Of a stretch of DNA of 64,000 nucleotides, positions 6,192-59,258 are shown one piece after another. A model generated the notes under the pieces. It made no database searches, had not been told where the DNA came from, and saw only the letters and a list, made by a program, of their open reading frames with translations. Source of the DNA: a virus; the IMG/VR virus record IMGVR_UViG_3300006046_000001, positions 1 through 64,000 of that record; one strand, written 5' to 3'. Both the position numbers and the translations under genes were made by a program. Position 1 is the stretch's first letter. Every line of letters begins with the position of its first letter.

Positions 6192-6463
6192 GAGAAGAGC
6201 TTCCTTTCTATTTCGACTGCTTCTTCAAAATCCACACCACGCGGAATGTAGATATGAGCAAGTTCTTCAATTCCTACAAGAGCCAGCTGTTTGTCAAACC
6301 GGCGTTCTTTATCAACGTCATCAGAGATGTAGTCATCAAATTCAACTTCTACAGCGCCTCTGCCAATTGAATTCAGATACCGATATCTCTGTTCGTCAGC
6401 TTCTTCAGGAGCTACAAATGGAGAGAGCTTGAAGGAGCCAAAATCATTTGTTTTTGAGGGCAT
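6185..6463 (-). CDS. hypothetical acidic protein
   Basis: 92-aa ORF, tightly packed in the operon. No family recognised. Confidence 0.4.
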   Translation of the reverse strand: MPSKTNDFGSFKLSPFVAPEEADEQRYRYLNSIGRGAVEVEFDDYISDDVDKERRFDKQLALVGIEELAHIYIPRGVDFEEAVEIERKLFSW

Positions 6464-6708
6464 CTTGGATCCTGTATGATTGCCTTCAACATCAACCCTT
6501 GTAGGATAGGAAGGCTTAGAGAGAACGTGGTGTTTCTGAACCTTAGCACCAGATCAGTTCCTGAAATGCCAAGGATAGTTGCCTCGTTCAGAAACTTACC
6601 CTGGCTGAGAGCCACTATCTCATCAGAAGGTTCTTTCTGAAGAAAGGGTACTTTCTCAACCATCCAAAGTGGAGATTTCTGTTCTTCTGGTTTTTGTTGT
6701 TCTGACAT
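6412..6708 (-). CDS. hypothetical protein
   Basis: Track ORF 6412..6744 trimmed to ATG 6708 (MSEQQKPEEQ...) because 6711-6803 is a tRNA-like gene. The start lies 2 nt after that RNA and no SD is visible. Confidence 0.4.
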   Translation of the reverse strand: MSEQQKPEEQKSPLWMVEKVPFLQKEPSDEIVALSQGKFLNEATILGISGTDLVLRFRNTTFSLSLPILQGLMLKAIIQDPRCPQKQMILAPSSSLHL

Positions 6709-6710
6709 AG

Positions 6711-6803
6711 TGACGAGGAGAGGACTCGAACCTCCCACCTTCATTACTTGCCAAACCGGGCGGAAAGGCTTTCATGACGCTCTGCCAACTGAGCTACCTC
6801 GTC
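6711..6803 (-). tRNA. aberrant tRNA-like gene (93 nt) with ~20 extra nt in the anticodon arm; isotype undetermined
   Basis: RNA sense: GACGAGG TA GCTC AGTTGGCA GAGC G [TCATG...27 nt...AATGA] AGGTG GGAGG TTCGAGT CCTCT CCTCGTC A. Acceptor, D and T arms are canonical. The anticodon region is a 37-nt irregular hairpin with no canonical 7-nt U33 loop. Confidence 0.5.
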
Positions 6804-6804
6804 A

Positions 6805-6878
6805 TAAGTCCACCGAGACTCGAACTCGGAACCTGCAGCTTAGAAGGCTGCTGCTCTATCCAATTGAGCTATAGACTC
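6805..6878 (-). tRNA. tRNA-Arg: tRNA-Arg (anticodon TCT)
   Basis: Hand-folded cloverleaf: GAGTCTA/TGGACTT acceptor, GCTC-AATTGGATA-GAGC D arm, GCAGC-CTTCTAA-GCTGC anticodon arm, CCGAG-TTCGAGT-CTCGG T arm, discriminator A. 74 nt, no encoded CCA. Confidence 0.9.
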
Positions 6879-6879
6879 A

Positions 6880-7227
6880 TTACTCCAAGTAACTTTCGTC
6901 CTCTACATAATCATCCTCTTCCTCTGGATCGTCCAGATCAGAATCGATCTCCTCTTCTTCATCATCTTCTAGATCAGAAGGTTCCAAATCACTTCCATCA
7001 TCTACTTCGTCGTCTGTAGAATGGAGGATTTCACAAGAAACAAACTCTCGGAGAGTTGCTTCTTCTCCGTACTGATGTTTCTCTTGCGTGTTGTAGAGCT
7101 CGACTACTTTCTTGAGCTCTGGGCTTGGATCAGTTTCATTCTTATGATTGATCTCAAACTGCTCGTCCCAGGTTTCAGTTTGCCCTACATTCTTTACAAC
7201 CAGTTTACAGAGAGATCTGTACATCAT
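6880..7227 (-). CDS. hypothetical protein with extremely acidic C-terminal tail
   Basis: 115-aa ORF. The last ~50 aa are mostly D/E (DDEVDDGSDLEPSDLEDDEEEEIDSDLDDPEEEDDYVEDE). The stop codon sits 1 nt from the tRNA-Arg 5' end. Confidence 0.6.
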   Translation of the reverse strand: MMYRSLCKLVVKNVGQTETWDEQFEINHKNETDPSPELKKVVELYNTQEKHQYGEEATLREFVSCEILHSTDDEVDDGSDLEPSDLEDDEEEEIDSDLDDPEEEDDYVEDESYLE

Positions 7228-54312: not shown

Positions 54313-54777
54313 ATGCTCTGCACGAAGCGACTTGAGTTTGACGCTGGTCACCGAGTCCTTGGGCATGGAGGTAAGTGTAGACACCTGCATGGTCATCGCT
54401 ATGCCGCAGAGATTACTGTGTACGCAGAAGAGACCAACAAGCTCGGCTTCGTGGTGGACTTCGGTTGCATCAAGGAAGCTGTAGGCGAGTGGATTGACGA
54501 CAACTGGGATCACAACTTTCTCTGCAATGCTGACGATCCTTTACTACATGTCTTGGATCACTCTGAGCTAGAGTTTGAAGTGACTGGAGGACGTAAACCG
54601 TTTGTTATGCCGGGCAAGCAGAACCCGTCGGCAGAAAATCTTGCTCGCTTTCTGCTCTTCAAAGCAACAGAGCTCTTGGAAGATGCCTACCACGTAAGAG
54701 TTGTCAAAGTAAGGCTTTATGAAACACCAACCTGCTGGTCAGACTTCCGAAATCCCTACTTCCACCCCAGCGAGTAA
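54313..54777 (+). CDS. queD: 6-carboxy-5,6,7,8-tetrahydropterin synthase (QueD)
   Basis: LEFDAGHRVLGHGGKCRHLHGHRY matches the QueD/PTPS zinc and catalytic Cys motif (CxxxHGH). Confidence 0.85.
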   Translation: MLCTKRLEFDAGHRVLGHGGKCRHLHGHRYAAEITVYAEETNKLGFVVDFGCIKEAVGEWIDDNWDHNFLCNADDPLLHVLDHSELEFEVTGGRKPFVMPGKQNPSAENLARFLLFKATELLEDAYHVRVVKVRLYETPTCWSDFRNPYFHPSE

Positions 54778-55498
54778 GCTACTCAAAGTGGTGGCGATCT
54801 TTCGTACACTTGATGGTGAGTGTACACTCAACGGTCCTCTTCAGTTCTCTACGTTCATTCGCCTCGGCGGGTGCAATCTGAGATGTTGGAAGAGCACTGG
54901 GTTCTGTGATGCTCCTGCTACTTTGGATATGAGCTTTCCATATCCTGAGATGACAGTAGAGCAGATCATTACAAAGGTAGAACAGCTGAAAGTCAAGAGA
55001 GTGACCATAACTGGAGGAGAACCTCTGCTCCAGAAGCCTTTGCTCTTAGATCTCTGCTATGCCTTGAAAGAGTTAGGCATCAAGATCCATCTAGAGACAA
55101 GCGGGTCAATAGCGTTGCTCTCTACTGAGCTGTACGCTTTTGACTGTGTAATCATGGATCTGAAACCTCCGTCCACTGAGATGGAGAAGATGAACAAGTT
55201 CAGCATGATACCAATGCTGCGGACTCACGATTACATCAAGTTTGTGCTTAGTGACAGGGCTGACTTCACTTGGGCTTTGTCTGTACTGAAGAAGTACAAC
55301 CACAGATGTCATGTAGCAATGGGACCACGCTTCGGCTATCTCACTGGAGCAGAGATCGTTAAGTGGTTAGCAGAAGCTGAACAGTTCCAGATACAACTCA
55401 ACCTTCAACTTCACAAGTACATCTGGCCTCATGATGAACCTTACTTTAAGGATCTGAAGCAAGTTGACTTCAACAAGTTTGTGGCTCTGGAGAAATAA
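54719..55498 (+). CDS. queE: 7-carboxy-7-deazaguanine synthase (QueE, radical SAM)
   Basis: FIRLGGCNLRCWKSTGFCDAP cluster motif and ITGGEPLLQ. The ATG start overlaps queD by 59 nt. An alternative GTG at 54788 is possible. Confidence 0.8.
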   Translation: MKHQPAGQTSEIPTSTPASKLLKVVAIFRTLDGECTLNGPLQFSTFIRLGGCNLRCWKSTGFCDAPATLDMSFPYPEMTVEQIITKVEQLKVKRVTITGGEPLLQKPLLLDLCYALKELGIKIHLETSGSIALLSTELYAFDCVIMDLKPPSTEMEKMNKFSMIPMLRTHDYIKFVLSDRADFTWALSVLKKYNHRCHVAMGPRFGYLTGAEIVKWLAEAEQFQIQLNLQLHKYIWPHDEPYFKDLKQVDFNKFVALEK

Positions 55499-55500
55499 GC

Positions 55501-55713
55501 ATGGACAAGCACATTAAAGTGATTTACGTCTCTGTCTCAGGCTCCAGAGCAGACGCTCTCAAACAGTTGCAAGACAAGATCAACGATTATACTGAGAAGC
55601 CAAAGACCGACTTCAACACTGGCTGGAGGTTTCACAGCCAGAACTTGGTGCACTTGCAAACCAACATCGGCATTGAAATCTACGGCCTCTTGTTCTTTGA
55701 AGAATCACGATGA
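55501..55713 (+). CDS. hypothetical protein inside the deazaguanine operon
   Basis: 70-aa ORF with ATGA overlap with the next gene. No family recognised. Confidence 0.45.
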   Translation: MDKHIKVIYVSVSGSRADALKQLQDKINDYTEKPKTDFNTGWRFHSQNLVHLQTNIGIEIYGLLFFEESR

Positions 55714-56495
55714 TCCATTTGCATCAGAGACCAGCAGCAATTGCTTTTACCGGTGGAATTGACAGCACGGTTCTAGCCTACTGGCTGTGCGCTGAGAATG
55801 ACAAGCTCGAGTTAGAGTTTTCACCCACACCAGAACCTCCTGGGTATAAGACCAAGCTGACTCTTCTGTGCTGCAACTATGGACAGAAGACCTGGAATAG
55901 GACTCTTGATCTTGCCAATGAACATGCGATGATCTTGTCGCATAAGTATCCTAAGCTTCATGTTGAAGCTCAGCCCATCCGAGTGGTCCTCCCTGATTGG
56001 ACTACCGGTGGTGGATTGTTCCAAGAGAATTATGTTCCACCGAAGCAAGACGAGACAGTAGACCATCATGAAGAAGTTCGGCGGTATGATTACTGCTACG
56101 TGGATGGTCTGAACGTCATCATGTACTCTTGGATGATGGCATGGTGCTCAAAACAGGAGGTCAGCTACTTGTTGACAGGCCATCAGTTTGAAGTGAACGA
56201 GTGGGATCATTTCGACGGGTACAAGTACAGAACTGATGACTCAACTCCATTCTTTACTGAACGAATGAATTTGATGAATGAGCTTGGATTCTCCTATAGA
56301 ACTAGGATTGAGTCGCCGTTCATCAGTATGAGACTAAGCAAGTACAACATCTGCAACCTAGGTGTTCAGCTAGATGTTGATCTAGGAAAGAAGACTTTCT
56401 CTTGTCAGTTTAGTCCCTCCTGCCAAAAGTGTGATAACTGCATTATTCGCCGCAAGGCGTTTGCGATGCTGAATATCAAGGATGAATATGTTTAG
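55710..56495 (+). CDS. queC: QueC-like PP-loop ATPase (7-cyano-7-deazaguanine synthase family), paralogue 1
   Basis: AIAFTGGIDST (SGGxDS PP-loop), NYGQK (like DYGQRH), YVDGLNVIMYSW (like VPGRN), C-terminal CQFSPSCQKCDNCIIRR zinc cluster. Confidence 0.7.
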   Translation: MIHLHQRPAAIAFTGGIDSTVLAYWLCAENDKLELEFSPTPEPPGYKTKLTLLCCNYGQKTWNRTLDLANEHAMILSHKYPKLHVEAQPIRVVLPDWTTGGGLFQENYVPPKQDETVDHHEEVRRYDYCYVDGLNVIMYSWMMAWCSKQEVSYLLTGHQFEVNEWDHFDGYKYRTDDSTPFFTERMNLMNELGFSYRTRIESPFISMRLSKYNICNLGVQLDVDLGKKTFSCQFSPSCQKCDNCIIRRKAFAMLNIKDEYV

Positions 56496-57369
56496 AAACA
56501 TACTCGACCAACTCGACGCTGAGTATCGCTTTGCTATTGCTGAAGGTTCCAAAGTAGGACCTTTGAAGCAGAGCATAGTGTTAGACACTTATGGTAACGA
56601 CACTCCTAGTCGGTACGCTAACACCATGTCTGCGGTGCTCAGCACTGGAGAGTTCGGGTCTAAGACAATTGTAGTAGATGAGATCACTAGAAAGATGACG
56701 TCTAGGACTCTTCTGTTCAACAGTCTTGGCGACCCAATAGCGAACATGTGTTCAGCACATCTGACTAGAATCAGATGTGGGTTCATGGCAGCTTTGTGCT
56801 GTAGGTACTACTACCAACAGCATCAACTTCCACCCAAGGTAGCGATACTTGGCTTCGGTAGGATCGGCAAGACAGTACTGGACGTCTTGGCTAAAGTTCT
56901 AGACGACACAGCTACAGACTGGATGTTCAAAGAGTCAAGAGAGGCTCCTCTCGTCTATCTAGATGAGAAGCGAACTCCAGCTGACCTATCAGATGCGGAT
57001 CTAGTGATCACTTGCACATCTGAATGGGACAAGGCTGCCAGAATTAGTTCTAACACTTTCAAACACAAGAGTTTAGTTGTCTCTTTCGATCTAGGATACT
57101 TTCTAGATCGGTCGTTTAGACAGAATGAACAAAACAACTTTTCTGACTGTCCTTCGCACGTGAGGCACAACTTCCACGAAGAGTTTCCTTGGGATTGGGA
57201 AGACAGCGACGGCGAACTTGCGGCACCTACTTTTGCTCCTCTCTTTGAGCTTACCACACATGACGCTGGAATAGCTGTAGCGTACATCTATGGCATGGCT
57301 TTCTCGGATTTAATAATGTCACTACACTCCCACGACCTCATTCCCTACTTCGCCAGCCATGACCTCTAA
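56482..57369 (+). CDS. ornithine cyclodeaminase/mu-crystallin-like NAD(P)-binding enzyme (putative)
   Basis: HLTRIRCGFMAALCCRYY followed by KVAILGFGRIGKT (GxGxxG) mimics the T..RT.A...A..L ... iiG.G layout of the OCD/mu-crystallin family. Motif-level call only. Confidence 0.4.
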   Translation: MNMFRNILDQLDAEYRFAIAEGSKVGPLKQSIVLDTYGNDTPSRYANTMSAVLSTGEFGSKTIVVDEITRKMTSRTLLFNSLGDPIANMCSAHLTRIRCGFMAALCCRYYYQQHQLPPKVAILGFGRIGKTVLDVLAKVLDDTATDWMFKESREAPLVYLDEKRTPADLSDADLVITCTSEWDKAARISSNTFKHKSLVVSFDLGYFLDRSFRQNEQNNFSDCPSHVRHNFHEEFPWDWEDSDGELAAPTFAPLFELTTHDAGIAVAYIYGMAFSDLIMSLHSHDLIPYFASHDL

Positions 57370-58300
57370 TCACCCTAACCCATTCGTCCAGACCTGTATC
57401 AACATAGCTCGAAATGGATGTCAGAAGCAAGGAGCAGCAGGAGTTGCAGTTCCTTACTACAATCCTAAGCTCCAAGAGCTAGGCCGTTTTCTACTAACTC
57501 GTTCTGGCTGTCCTCAAGATTCTTGCCAGAACATCTGCGGTCCTCATAGCTACAAGAGTATAGCACTATGCTTCGGTGCTGGGATTGATAGCTACTGCGC
57601 TTTAATTTTAGCATTGCAACTAGAACACAATCCCATTCACGTAGTGCATGTCCACTACGGTCAGCCCTACTATGACGAAGAACAGTTTGTAGTAAACAGA
57701 ATCTTTTCAGCCTACCCTTCGGCGATGAAGCAAGACCTAAACCGCTTTCCTGGCTGGCAGAACAGACTCAAACTAGAAGACGGCGGCAATGATTCCAACG
57801 AAGGTTTCTACGCAGACATTGGCCTAGTCAATGAAGGTCTCGACTGGGAGAACTATATCATCCCAGCAAGAAACTTAGTGCTTGCGGCAATTGCCTCCCA
57901 GTACTCTAATCATGTTTGGGTTGTTGCCAACAGCAGAGCTAATGAAGCAGTAGGCACTCCAGACAAGACGAAGCACTTCTTCCAGACTACTGTAGAGATC
58001 ATGACGCAGTTTTATGGAAGCAAGTACATCTTCGGTTCGCCATTTAGTACACAATCAAAGCTTAGGGTAGTGCAAAACTACCTCCAAGCTGGTGGCTCTA
58101 TAGAAGCTCTCAAAGAGACTGTTTCTTGTTATTCGCCATCAAAGGGAGATATAATTCATTGTGGTAAGTGTTATGCTTGCTACAAAAGATTCAAGCTCTT
58201 CCAGGCTCTGAACGTGGAACATAACTTTGTGGTACATCCACAAAGTGCTCCAAACTGGAATGCTTACGAAGCAAGAGAAGCGAAAAAACATGGAGTTTAA
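57359..58300 (+). CDS. QueC-like PP-loop ATPase, paralogue 2, with Cys-rich N-terminal extension
   Basis: ALCFGAGIDS (degenerate PP-loop), HVHYGQPYY, IIPARNLVLAAIAS, C-terminal SCYSPSKGDIIHCGKCYACYKRF. Carries a ~65-aa N-terminal extension with C..C...C..C..C. Confidence 0.6.
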   Translation: MTSNHPNPFVQTCINIARNGCQKQGAAGVAVPYYNPKLQELGRFLLTRSGCPQDSCQNICGPHSYKSIALCFGAGIDSYCALILALQLEHNPIHVVHVHYGQPYYDEEQFVVNRIFSAYPSAMKQDLNRFPGWQNRLKLEDGGNDSNEGFYADIGLVNEGLDWENYIIPARNLVLAAIASQYSNHVWVVANSRANEAVGTPDKTKHFFQTTVEIMTQFYGSKYIFGSPFSTQSKLRVVQNYLQAGGSIEALKETVSCYSPSKGDIIHCGKCYACYKRFKLFQALNVEHNFVVHPQSAPNWNAYEAREAKKHGV

Positions 58301-58310
58301 GACTTAAGAA

Positions 58311-59258
58311 ATGAACCTCTATCTCGCTTGCAGCGGTATGATGTTTCATACCTACAGGGATGATTTATTCCCTCGCTTCTGTGTGCCTGAGCCTAGGTTT
58401 GCTGAACTGCGCTCCTACTTCGAGAACAACATTCGGACGTTCAACGGCCATACTCTGCCTAAGTTTGGCAATCCGTTCTTCATAGACTCAGGAGCCTTTT
58501 CTGCTTATATGCAGAAGATTCCTATCTCTTTTGAAGAGTACTCTAGCTTCCTCCTGGCTTACGGAGATCAAGCAGATCTGTACTGCGGTCTTGATGCTAT
58601 CCCAGAGGGACCAACTAAGGAAGCTAAGAAGAAGTCTGCCGAAGAGACGTGGCAGAACCAACTCAAGATGGAAGCAATGGGACTCAAGCCTGTTCCTGTG
58701 TTTCACTCTGGTGAACCCTGGCAGTACCTAGAGAGATACATTGATAGGAATGAATACATCTGCATTGGTGGTTTGGTCAACACACCAGATGTAGTAGATG
58801 GGTTCTTACACACTTGCTGGAGTAAGTACCTTACAGACAGCAAGGGTGATCCAATTCGCAAGGTGCACGGCTTCGGTATGACCACGCTGAAGCACTTGGT
58901 TGCGTACCCTTGGGCTAGTGTTGACAGTTCAACTTGGCTTGTACACTCCAAGTATGGAATCATTTCTGTACCTCCAAAGAAACCGGACGGTGCTGGCTTC
59001 GACTACAGAAAGAAGCCTATCCTTCTGTCAGTGTCAGACGAAAGCTCTTTCAAGACAGAAGAAGGAAAGCACATTGACAACCTAACTCCTATCCAGAAAG
59101 ATGCGGTAGCAGAGTTCGTTGAACAGTTTGGTCTCACAATGTGGGATCTCAGAAGAGAGCCAGTGCCGAGAATGATTATCAACTTCGAGTATTGGCTCAA
59201 TGTGGAAAAGGCGTGCAGCGATTACTTGAGAAAGCCTGAGCAATATGAAATCTTCTAG
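58311..59258 (+). CDS. dpdA: DpdA-like DNA-guanine transglycosylase (TGT superfamily)
   Basis: FFIDSGAFSAY resembles the TGT DSGGFQ catalytic motif. PVFHSGEPW...YICIGGLV and HGFGMT...ASVDSSTWL resemble TGT barrel motifs. Last gene of the que operon. Confidence 0.65.
   Translation: MNLYLACSGMMFHTYRDDLFPRFCVPEPRFAELRSYFENNIRTFNGHTLPKFGNPFFIDSGAFSAYMQKIPISFEEYSSFLLAYGDQADLYCGLDAIPEGPTKEAKKKSAEETWQNQLKMEAMGLKPVPVFHSGEPWQYLERYIDRNEYICIGGLVNTPDVVDGFLHTCWSKYLTDSKGDPIRKVHGFGMTTLKHLVAYPWASVDSSTWLVHSKYGIISVPPKKPDGAGFDYRKKPILLSVSDESSFKTEEGKHIDNLTPIQKDAVAEFVEQFGLTMWDLRREPVPRMIINFEYWLNVEKACSDYLRKPEQYEIF

What the first reader, a model, noticed from the sequence alone, without database searches (positions are those of the whole stretch)
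6711..6803. 93-nt tRNA-like gene with canonical acceptor, D and T arms but a 37-nt irregular anticodon arm
In RNA sense the molecule has a 7-bp acceptor stem, a textbook D arm (GCTC-AGTTGGCA-GAGC), a T arm (GGAGG-TTCGAGT-CCTCT) and a 5-nt variable loop. Between G26 and the variable loop it carries TCATGAAAGCCTTTCCGCCCGGTTTGGCAAGTAATGA instead of a 17-nt anticodon stem-loop. That is about 20 extra nt. I could find no 7-nt loop with U33, and a class II fold does not work. Possible explanations are a small intron (unexpected in bacteria or phages), a decayed tRNA, or a tRNA mimic or decoy. A decoy could, for example, bind host tRNA-targeting nucleases, modification enzymes or CCA-adding/aminoacylation factors. 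It is co-transcribed 1 nt downstream of a normal tRNA-Arg(TCT).
Basis: seen in the sequence. Interest (0 to 1): 0.6.

Follow-up and report, generated by a model that had tools for sequence, protein, structure and literature searches.

The report
Anticodon-less tRNA look-alike in phage
An uncultured 89.5-kb phage carries, right behind a normal arginine tRNA gene, a gene with an intact tRNA body but a 37-base rod where the anticodon arm should be, so it almost certainly cannot read codons and joins the old, still unexplained class of phage tRNA look-alikes.

Summary
Window 6711-6803 (minus strand) is a 93-nt gene with a perfect 7-bp acceptor stem, D arm, T arm and 5-nt variable loop. Rfam's tRNA model scores it 48.1 bits (cut-off 29), but only by skipping 31 nt in the anticodon arm. 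I found no canonical tRNA in it:
- Default ARAGORN misses it, and intron mode forces a poor Ala(GGC) fold.
- No single deletion gives a 5-bp stem with a 7-nt U33 loop.
- No bulge-helix-bulge splice motif gives a sensible product.
- The insert is far too short for a group I intron.

The phage looks bacterial (RecA, PolA). It encodes no splicing endonuclease, RtcB, Ro60 or CCA enzyme.

The extra arm can stack into a rod. Its internal loop matches the sarcin-ricin consensus (GAA opposite AGUA), which arose in 4 of 100,000 shuffles. However, its predicted folding energy is ordinary.

No relative was found in any collection searched, so conservation and covariation could not be tested.

Best reading (about 0.45): a non-decoding, tRNA-processed stable RNA like phage T5 RNA1. 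Main rival (about 0.3): a recently inactivated tRNA kept as a processing signal. An intron is unlikely.

The scan has noted similar oversized phage tRNA look-alikes on other DNA before.

The parts
6711..6803 (-). 93-nt tRNA-like gene (whole element)
   Evidence: RF00005 48.1 bits, gathering score 29, model positions 1-71. Missed by default ARAGORN.
6797..6803 (-). Acceptor stem, 5' strand. It pairs with 6712-6718, and 7 of 7 pairs are Watson-Crick. The discriminator A is at 6711. No CCA is encoded.
   Evidence: cmscan alignment; sequence.
6779..6794 (-). D arm: 4-bp stem and 8-nt loop with A14, G15, G18, G19, A21
   Evidence: cmscan alignment.
6741..6777 (-). 37-nt arm in place of the 17-nt anticodon stem-loop. 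The predicted rod runs: 4 bp (UCAU/AUGA), a 4x5 internal loop, 3 bp (GCC/GGC), a UUU/UUU internal loop, 2 bp (CC/GG), and a GCCC loop.
   Evidence: RNAfold MFE. The z-score is only -0.55, so the fold is a prediction and not demonstrated.
6745..6773 (-). Sarcin-ricin / loop E type signature. GAA (6771-6773) lies opposite AGUA (6745-6748). A U-A pair and 3 more pairs lie on the body side. On the far side there is one A/A layer and then 3 G-C pairs.
   Evidence: Consensus AGUA/GAA from PMC1865062. Found in 4e-5 of 200,000 shuffles of the inner 29 nt. Only 2 such sites on both strands of the 89.5-kb genome.
6736..6740 (-). 5-nt variable loop (AGGUG), with G at position 48
   Evidence: cmscan alignment.
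6719..6735 (-). T arm: 5-bp stem and UUCGAGU loop
   Evidence: cmscan alignment.
6805..6878 (-). Canonical tRNA-Arg(TCT), directly upstream with a 1-nt spacer at 6804
   Evidence: ARAGORN. RF00005 68.1 bits. AGA is the commonest Arg codon of the phage's long ORFs.
6880..7227 (-). Upstream ORF of 115 aa, pI 4.05, with a hyper-acidic C-terminal tail. Its TAA stop (6880-6882) lies 1 nt before tRNA-Arg.
   Evidence: Orphan protein.
6412..6708 (-). Downstream ORF of 98 aa. Its ATG (6706-6708) lies 2 nt after the end of the tRNA-like gene, leaving no room for a Shine-Dalgarno sequence. An in-frame ATG at 6742-6744 lies inside the tRNA-like gene.
   Evidence: The codon-usage score is positive only in this frame. 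Orphan protein.

Best explanation
The element is a non-decoding, tRNA-shaped small RNA, not a tRNA. It is transcribed as part of the leftward block of small early-type genes. Its intact acceptor/T-arm/D-arm body makes it a substrate for the host's tRNA-processing enzymes. RNase P would cut at its 5' end, which also frees the 3' end of tRNA-Arg. A 3' tRNA-processing nuclease would cut after the discriminator, which also creates the almost leaderless 5' end of the next mRNA. The host would then add CCA. The released RNA of about 93-96 nt has no anticodon loop. It also lacks the marks used by the synthetases that ignore the anticodon, so it probably neither decodes nor is charged. In place of the anticodon arm it shows a rod of about 16 layers with a sarcin-ricin-type internal loop, a classic protein-docking surface. 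The most likely role is to bind, and probably sequester, a host tRNA- or rRNA-binding protein during early infection. Shown here: the tRNA body, the missing anticodon loop, the missing splice solution, the gene layout and the motif signature. Inferred: transcription, processing, stability, the rod fold and the binding partner.
For: The body is intact: 16 of 16 stem pairs in the acceptor, D and T arms, all universal tertiary nucleotides except position 48, and RF00005 at 48.1 bits. No canonical anticodon arm is obtainable by any fold or single excision, and no BHB motif works. There is no G3-U70, no long variable arm and no G-1 (U at 6804), so the Ala, Ser and His identity marks are absent (sequence; identity rules are from my own knowledge). 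The arm's internal loop matches the AGUA/GAA sarcin-ricin consensus with helices on both sides. That arrangement arose in 4e-5 of shuffles and occurs at only one other site in 179 kb of sequence. There is a precedent: phage T5 RNA1, annotated as a 'tRNA-like stable RNA with unknown functions', lies head to tail in a tRNA cluster and matches RF00005 with a 47-nt block in place of the anticodon loop. The gene sits among small orphan genes, next to a hyper-acidic protein, which is the usual setting of host-takeover genes.
Against: No relative was found, so there is no conservation or covariation evidence for the gene or its arm. The predicted arm fold is no more stable than shuffled sequence (z -0.55), and the whole RNA has z -1.21. 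I noticed the sarcin-ricin match after looking at the fold, so its low chance value is post hoc. No partner protein is identifiable: the phage has no Ro60/TROVE, and the neighbouring proteins are orphans with a low-confidence model. No expression data exist.
Confidence: 0.45

Rival explanations
1. The element is an inactivated tRNA. A former class I tRNA, second member of an Arg-X tandem, lost its anticodon arm through a rearrangement of about 20 nt. It is either too young to have decayed or is kept only because its body still directs RNase P and 3' processing. That processing separates tRNA-Arg from the downstream message and creates its 5' end (tRNA punctuation). The arm itself has no function.
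For: The phage stands alone, so nothing shows selection on the arm. The arm's folding energy is ordinary. The spacing is extremely tight: stop codon, 1 nt, tRNA, 1 nt, tRNA-like, 2 nt, ATG, with no Shine-Dalgarno sequence. The downstream gene therefore depends on whatever happens at the 3' end of the tRNA-like gene. Other phages carry Arg(TCT)-Met(CAT) tandems with spacers of 1-2 nt in the same order, and the body resembles ordinary phage tRNA-Asn genes.
Against: There is not one mismatch in 16 stem pairs, and the tertiary nucleotides are kept. The arm is not random-looking: it has a sarcin-ricin signature (4e-5 in shuffles) and a symmetric UUU/UUU loop between G-C helices. tRNA-Arg alone could serve as the processing signal.
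Confidence: 0.3
2. The element is a true tRNA with a small intron. About 18-20 nt would be removed after transcription by an unknown bacterial or phage activity, leaving a working anticodon loop such as UUGGCAA (anticodon GGC).
For: ARAGORN in intron mode proposes tRNA-Ala(GGC) with a 19-nt intron. Removing 18 nt gives a perfect 5-bp stem, though with a 9-nt loop. 'Enigmatic' tRNA insertions are reported in Lak megaphages (PMC6784885).
Against: ARAGORN's fold has only 2 Watson-Crick pairs in the anticodon stem, no nucleotide 26 and a 7-nt variable loop. No excision gives 5 bp plus a 7-nt loop with U33. No BHB motif works. The insert is far too short for a group I intron and has no Rfam intron match. 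The Ala identity pair G3-U70 is absent. The host is bacterial-type and the phage lacks a splicing endonuclease and RtcB. Lak-type and archaeal insertions sit at 37/38 and leave a canonical loop; this one does not.
Confidence: 0.07
3. The element is a Y RNA-like (YrlA-type) RNA that tethers a Ro60/Rsr protein.
For: A weak cmscan match to YrlA (22.5 bits, E 0.015 in a 351-nt search) spans the T arm of tRNA-Arg through the D arm and part of the insert.
Against: The score is far below the gathering score of 69, with many non-pairs in the outer stems. The match follows from the order T arm, acceptor strands, D arm in any tRNA tandem. No TROVE/Ro60 gene exists in the 89.5-kb genome.
Confidence: 0.02
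4. The element is an assembly or sequencing artefact that created a false insertion in a normal tRNA gene.
For: The genome is a metagenome assembly and I could not inspect reads.
Against: The record is a complete genome with direct terminal repeats. The identical upstream protein is recorded on 8 contigs. The arm has no repeat elsewhere in the genome that could cause a chimeric join. Deleting the extra bases does not yield a normal tRNA.
Confidence: 0.03

Closest known systems
Phage T5 RNA1 (NC_005859.1 30501-30644, annotated 'tRNA-like stable RNA with unknown functions'), with the adjacent T5 RNAI and RNAIII
   Same: It is phage-encoded and placed head to tail with true tRNA genes, with 0-4 nt spacers. 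It has a tRNA-type acceptor, D arm and T arm. Rfam's tRNA model aligns it end to end only by skipping a large block where the anticodon loop should be (47 nt in T5, 31 nt here; against 4). Its function is unknown.
   Different: There is no sequence similarity. T5 RNA1 is 144 nt, also has a long extra arm and scores below the Rfam cut-off (24 bits). The window RNA is 93 nt, is class I-like and scores 48 bits. T5 RNA1 is annotated as a stable RNA in the record; this one has no expression data.
'Enigmatic' tRNA introns of Lak megaphages (Devoto et al. 2019, PMC6784885)
   Same: These are oversized phage tRNA genes in a bacterial virus, with the insertion in the anticodon arm and no known removal mechanism.
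   Different: The one Lak example I read, a 93-nt insertion in tRNA-Tyr(GTA), follows position 37 and leaves a recognisable anticodon and loop, so an isotype can be called. Here no anticodon loop can be reconstituted.
Archaeal BHB-intron tRNAs (for example tRNA-Asn(GUU) genes with the same D arm, found in metagenome contigs)
   Same: Same D-arm sequence, an Asn-like body and 14-30 extra nt in the anticodon arm.
   Different: In those, by my own reading of the sequences, the loop CUGUUA is intact, the insert sits at 37/38 and a 4-bp helix flanked by 3-nt bulges can be drawn. The window RNA has none of these features, and its phage is of bacterial type.
Sarcin-ricin / loop E internal-loop motif of rRNA (consensus AGUA/GAA; PMC1865062)
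   Same: The same two strands, with the flanking Watson-Crick pair on the correct side.
   Different: It is known from rRNA and a few other RNAs, not from tRNA anticodon arms. There is no GAGA tetraloop next to it, so it does not copy the ribosomal sarcin-ricin loop itself. The 3D fold is untested.
YrlA / bacterial Y RNAs (RF02553)
   Same: tRNA-like module plus a protein-docking helix; also found in phages.
   Different: YrlA has a circularly permuted topology. The score here is 22.5 against a gathering score of 69, and there is no Ro60 gene.

Membership tests
Canonical tRNA (Rfam RF00005) | Cloverleaf with acceptor, D and T arms, scoring above the curated cut-off | tested here: met
   48.1 bits against 29, model positions 1-71.
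Canonical tRNA (Rfam RF00005) | 5-bp anticodon stem closing a 7-nt loop with U33 and an anticodon | tested here: not met
   31 nt replace 11 model positions. Default ARAGORN finds nothing. No fold or excision provides it.
Canonical tRNA (Rfam RF00005) | Aminoacylation by a synthetase | not testable with these tools
   The sequence lacks G3-U70, a long variable arm and G-1. Only A73 is present.
BHB-intron tRNA (archaeal/eukaryal type) | Bulge-helix-bulge (3-4-3) motif at the exon-intron junctions | tested here: not met
   An exhaustive scan of the 93 nt found no candidate whose product keeps a cloverleaf.
BHB-intron tRNA (archaeal/eukaryal type) | Exons join to form a canonical anticodon stem-loop | tested here: not met
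   The best case is a 9-nt loop.
BHB-intron tRNA (archaeal/eukaryal type) | Splicing endonuclease and ligase available | tested here: inconclusive
   The phage has none (PF01974, PF01139). The host is unknown but the phage genes are bacterial-type (RecA, PolA, 5'-3' exonuclease).
Group I intron in a tRNA gene | Intron of about 200 nt or more with a catalytic core recognisable by Rfam | tested here: not met
   The insert is 20-31 nt. There is no intron family match at E up to 1.
Phage tRNA-like stable RNAs (T5 RNA1 type) | tRNA-type body with a non-tRNA block replacing the anticodon loop | tested here: met
   compared side by side.
Phage tRNA-like stable RNAs (T5 RNA1 type) | Head-to-tail position in a phage tRNA transcription unit | tested here: met
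   1 nt after tRNA-Arg. T5: 0-4 nt spacers.
Phage tRNA-like stable RNAs (T5 RNA1 type) | Accumulates as a stable processed RNA | not testable with these tools
   No transcript data.
Phage tRNA-like stable RNAs (T5 RNA1 type) | Sequence homology to a described member | tested here: not met
   blastn against 50,697 phage records matches only generic tRNA halves. This is a class by design, not a homologous family.
YrlA / Y RNA (RF02553) | Score above the gathering cut-off, and a Ro60/Rsr partner | tested here: not met
   22.5 against 69 bits. No TROVE domain in the genome.
tmRNA | tRNA-like domain plus tag reading frame | tested here: not met
   ARAGORN -m finds none.
Sarcin-ricin / loop E motif | AGUA opposite GAA with a Watson-Crick pair next to the sheared G-A end, embedded between helices | tested here: met
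   Sequence register, consensus, rarity.
Sarcin-ricin / loop E motif | S-turn 3D geometry with a bulged G | not testable with these tools
   Needs chemical probing or a solved structure.

The most novel reading that the evidence does not exclude
The RNA is a purpose-built tRNA scaffold. The host's own tRNA-processing enzymes cut it out and stabilise it. Its arm presents a sarcin-ricin-type docking site that captures a host defence or stress protein which normally recognises tRNA anticodon arms or the ribosomal sarcin-ricin loop (for example a PIN/VapC-type or other anticodon-arm nuclease). That would make it an RNA anti-defence decoy of a new design.
Probability: 0.12. Interest if true: 0.7.

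Novelty: new member of a known kind. Interest (0 to 1): 0.35.

Why it matters
Phage tRNA look-alikes without a usable anticodon have been annotated since T5 was sequenced, yet their function is still listed as unknown there. Gene finders and annotation pipelines mostly skip them or call them pseudo-tRNAs. This example is small at 93 nt and has a flawless tRNA body. Its arm carries a recognisable protein-docking motif, which makes it a convenient case for a pull-down or probing experiment. If the arm binds a host factor, it would link this class to the current work on phage tRNAs as counter-defence tools. If it is only a dead tRNA used as a processing signal, it illustrates tRNA punctuation of a phage operon that produces a leaderless message. 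For this single orphan locus, the computational evidence cannot go further.

Tried and rejected
1. Canonical or class II tRNA. Default ARAGORN finds nothing.
2. Intron models.
   - ARAGORN -i gives a forced Ala(GGC) fold.
   - I enumerated all single excisions, with 26-position offsets 0-2, loops of 7-9 nt and variable loops of 3-8 nt. None has U33 with at least 4 stem pairs in a 7-nt-loop arm.
   - The BHB scan found nothing sensible.
3. Haloarchaeal-virus idea, raised by the tRNA-Asn body match. Rejected: the proteome is not acidic, and Shine-Dalgarno sites, RecA and PolA are present.
4. Orthologue hunting. All of the following were negative:
   - flanking proteins are orphans among 5.8 billion proteins;
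   - peptide-pattern scans;
   - the acceptor/D 19-mer;
   - a tRNA-Arg 30-mer;
   - a specific arm pattern in metagenomes;
   - the nearest phage fragments (MCP 50-58% identical) have no tRNA, and in the one examined in full (26 kb) the early region shows no homology.
5. Mimicry of a cellular sequence or CRISPR repeat. A 20-mer of the arm gave 5 unrelated single hits in 185,579 genomes.
6. Antisense target in the phage. No complement longer than chance expectation.
7. YrlA. Rejected.
8. Partner protein next door. The 98-aa protein has no Pfam or Atlas hit, and its AlphaFold model has mean pLDDT 59.5, too poor for a fold search.
9. A generic D-arm/T-loop pattern in viral and metagenome contigs returned a mixed bag: archaeal intron tRNAs, class II-like tRNAs and other phage look-alikes. 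None shares this arm or its GAA/AGUA loop.

Full report
**Observation**

On the minus strand, 6711-6803 reads as a 93-nt RNA with every part of a class I tRNA except the anticodon arm.
- Rfam's tRNA model aligns it end to end at 48.1 bits (gathering score 29). It does so only by declaring 31 nt an insertion in place of 11 model positions.
- The acceptor (7 bp), D (4 bp) and T (5 bp, one G-U) stems have no mismatch.
- U8, A14, G18, G19, A21, the UUC of the T loop and A58 are all present. Only position 48 (G) departs from the consensus.
- A canonical tRNA-Arg(TCT) (68.1 bits) ends one base upstream.

**Is there a hidden canonical tRNA?**

No.
- Default ARAGORN does not call the element.
- In intron mode ARAGORN forces a tRNA-Ala(GGC) with a 19-nt 'intron'. 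That anticodon stem has two Watson-Crick pairs, two G-U pairs and a mismatch. The fold also has no nucleotide 26 and a 7-nt variable loop. The Ala identity pair G3-U70 is absent (C3-G70).
- I enumerated every single excision between G26 and the T stem. None gives a 5-bp stem (at least 4 pairs) with a 7-nt loop and U33.
- With relaxed rules, the best result is a perfect 5-bp stem closing a 9-nt loop after removal of 18 nt.
- A scan for bulge-helix-bulge motifs (4-bp helix, 3-nt bulges, strict and relaxed) found nothing whose product keeps a cloverleaf.
- At 20-31 nt the insert cannot be a group I intron, and no intron family matched at E up to 1.

**What kind of virus is this?**

The window is the first 64 kb of an 89,493-bp IMG/VR genome with direct terminal repeats, rated complete.
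- It is a tailed phage with terminase, portal, major head protein, tape measure and a family A DNA polymerase.
- It also has a bacterial-type RecA, a 5'-3' exonuclease, SbcCD-like proteins, an ATP-dependent DNA ligase, helicases and a 7-deazaguanine pathway: FolE, QueE and two QueC-like genes.
- Its proteins are not acidic overall, and several genes have GGAG-type ribosome-binding sites.
- The body of the RNA resembles tRNA-Asn genes of haloarchaeal viruses, but the evidence above does not support an archaeal host.
- The genome encodes no tRNA-splicing endonuclease, RtcB, TROVE/Ro60, Pfam-type TGT or CCA-adding enzyme.

**Relatives**

I found none that help.
- The two flanking proteins have no homologues among 5.8 billion clustered proteins apart from themselves.
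- Peptide-pattern scans with the 98-aa neighbour and with terminase found nothing in viral contigs.
- The closest phages (major head protein 50-58% identical) are short fragments without tRNA genes. In the one I examined in full, a 26-kb contig, the region beyond terminase shows no homology to the window's left arm.
- These all gave zero matches: exact patterns for the acceptor/D arm, for tRNA-Arg, and for the arm base plus variable loop in metagenomes.
- Conservation and covariation, the tests that would decide between a functional RNA and a dead gene, could therefore not be run.

**The arm itself**

RNAfold predicts one continuous imperfect hairpin:
- four pairs at the base,
- a 4x5 internal loop,
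- three G-C pairs,
- a symmetric UUU/UUU loop,
- two G-C pairs,
- and a four-base loop.

Its energy is no better than that of shuffled sequence (z -0.55), so thermodynamics gives no support.

The internal loop, however, has GAA on the 5' strand and AGUA on the 3' strand, with a U-A pair next to the G/A end. This is the consensus of the sarcin-ricin (loop E, bulged-G) motif (PMC1865062).
- With at least three pairs on both sides, this arrangement arose in 4 of 100,000 shuffles of the inner 29 nt.
- It occurs at only one other place on both strands of the 89.5-kb genome.
- I noticed it after seeing the fold, so the figure should be discounted for the number of motifs I might have recognised. It still argues that the arm is not random filler.
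- If the non-canonical layers form, the arm is a stacked rod of about 16 layers.

The arm has no repeat or long complement elsewhere in the phage. A 20-mer from it hits only five unrelated places in 185,579 prokaryote genomes. It therefore does not copy a conserved cellular sequence or a CRISPR repeat.

**Layout**

The packing is extreme. The order is: TAA stop of a 115-aa hyper-acidic protein (6880-6882), one base, tRNA-Arg, one base, the look-alike, two bases, then the ATG (6706-6708) of a 98-aa ORF. That ORF scores as coding only in this frame.
- There is no room for a Shine-Dalgarno sequence.
- Cutting out the two RNAs would end the upstream message just past its stop codon. It would start the downstream one two bases before its AUG.
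- No promoter or terminator stands out nearby.
- AGA is the phage's main arginine codon, so tRNA-Arg makes sense as a working tRNA.

**Comparison with what is known**

- *Phage T5.* T5 carries three 'stable RNAs with unknown functions' head to tail beside tRNA-His. One of them, RNA1, is annotated as tRNA-like. Rfam's tRNA model aligns it just as it aligns this element, with a 47-nt block in place of the anticodon loop, at 24 bits. This is the closest known kind by design, though not by sequence.
- *Lak megaphages.* The one 'enigmatic intron' I read there differs. It follows position 37 and leaves a callable anticodon.
- *Generic pattern scans.* A D-arm/T-loop pattern with extra spacing returned 16 viral and 54 metagenome loci. 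They are a mixture:
  - archaeal tRNA-Asn and tRNA-Tyr genes for which, by my own reading, a small bulge-helix-bulge intron at 37/38 can be drawn;
  - class II-like tRNAs;
  - several unrelated phage look-alike families.
  None shares this arm or its GAA/AGUA loop.
- *YrlA.* The weak match (22.5 against 69 bits) is a by-product of the tandem order of arms, and no Ro60 gene is present.
- *This scan.* It has recorded comparable oversized phage tRNA look-alikes on other DNA. I used those notes only as leads to the T5 and Lak records, which I then checked myself.

**Verdict**

The gene is real and cannot be a decoding tRNA as written.
- Most likely (about 0.45): a non-decoding tRNA-shaped RNA that is cut out by the tRNA-processing machinery and acts through its rod-like arm.
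- Main rival (about 0.3): a recently inactivated tRNA kept as a processing signal.
- Unlikely (about 0.07): a spliced tRNA.

It is a new, orphan member of a long-known but unexplained kind. That makes it moderately interesting but not surprising to a specialist.

Noticed in passing
window 54719-58300; G000 76250-76819 (L166:250-819): 7-deazaguanine pathway genes: a radical-SAM QueE-like gene, two QueC-like genes flanking a 295-aa protein with no Pfam hit, and FolE elsewhere in the genome. The Pfam TGT model finds no DpdA. The scan has already noted this operon on this genome.
   Followed up: partly
window 6880-7227 (-): 115-aa orphan protein, pI 4.05, 36% Asp+Glu, with a C-terminal tail made almost wholly of acidic residues. 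This is a DNA-mimic or anti-restriction-like composition. It lies directly upstream of the tRNA pair.
   Followed up: no
window 6706-6744 (-): An ATG inside the tRNA-like gene (6742-6744, in the 3' strand of the arm base) is in frame with the ATG at 6706-6708 of the 98-aa ORF, with no stop between them. An unprocessed transcript could in principle start translation 12 codons earlier.
   Followed up: no
window 59170-59191 (+): The only other site in the genome with GAA opposite AGUA between helices of at least 3 bp. It lies inside a coding region and is probably chance.
   Followed up: no
L012:4633-4698, L013, L117, L122, L124, L130, L134, L135, L142-L144, L146, L148, L150, L152, L162: A conserved family of phage tRNA-like genes in at least 16 contigs. 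Each has an AGGGA/UCCCU stem closing an 18-20-nt loop, an apparent G1/A72 mismatch and an encoded CCA. Where I looked (L012, L013), they lie next to tRNA-Lys(TTT) genes. The loop varies between members, so the family is suitable for covariation analysis.
   Followed up: no
L017:7015-7095, L138:1074-1154, L120:788-868: Other oversized tRNA-like genes share UCAUGG at the 5' side of a long arm. Two of them (L017, L138) look homologous in the insert. They may derive from tRNA-Met(CAU).
   Followed up: no
L118, L128, L139, L115, L157, L133, L160, L149, L154, L156: Metagenome contigs with tRNA-Asn(GUU) or tRNA-Tyr(GUA) genes carrying 14-26-nt inserts after position 37. Most can form a 4-bp helix flanked by 3-nt bulges, which is the ordinary archaeal intron pattern. 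They share the window's D-arm sequence.
   Followed up: partly
L167:702-845 (phage T5 RNA1): T5 RNA1 matches Rfam's tRNA model below the cut-off (24 bits), with a 47-nt block replacing the anticodon loop and a long extra arm. The neighbouring RNAI and RNAIII match no Rfam family at E up to 1.
   Followed up: partly
L168:103-250, L169:102-254: Shewanella phage Thanatos-1 and Mycobacterium phage Typha both carry tRNA-Arg(TCT) followed after 1-2 nt by tRNA-Met(CAT). This is the same order and spacing as the Arg/look-alike pair here.
   Followed up: partly
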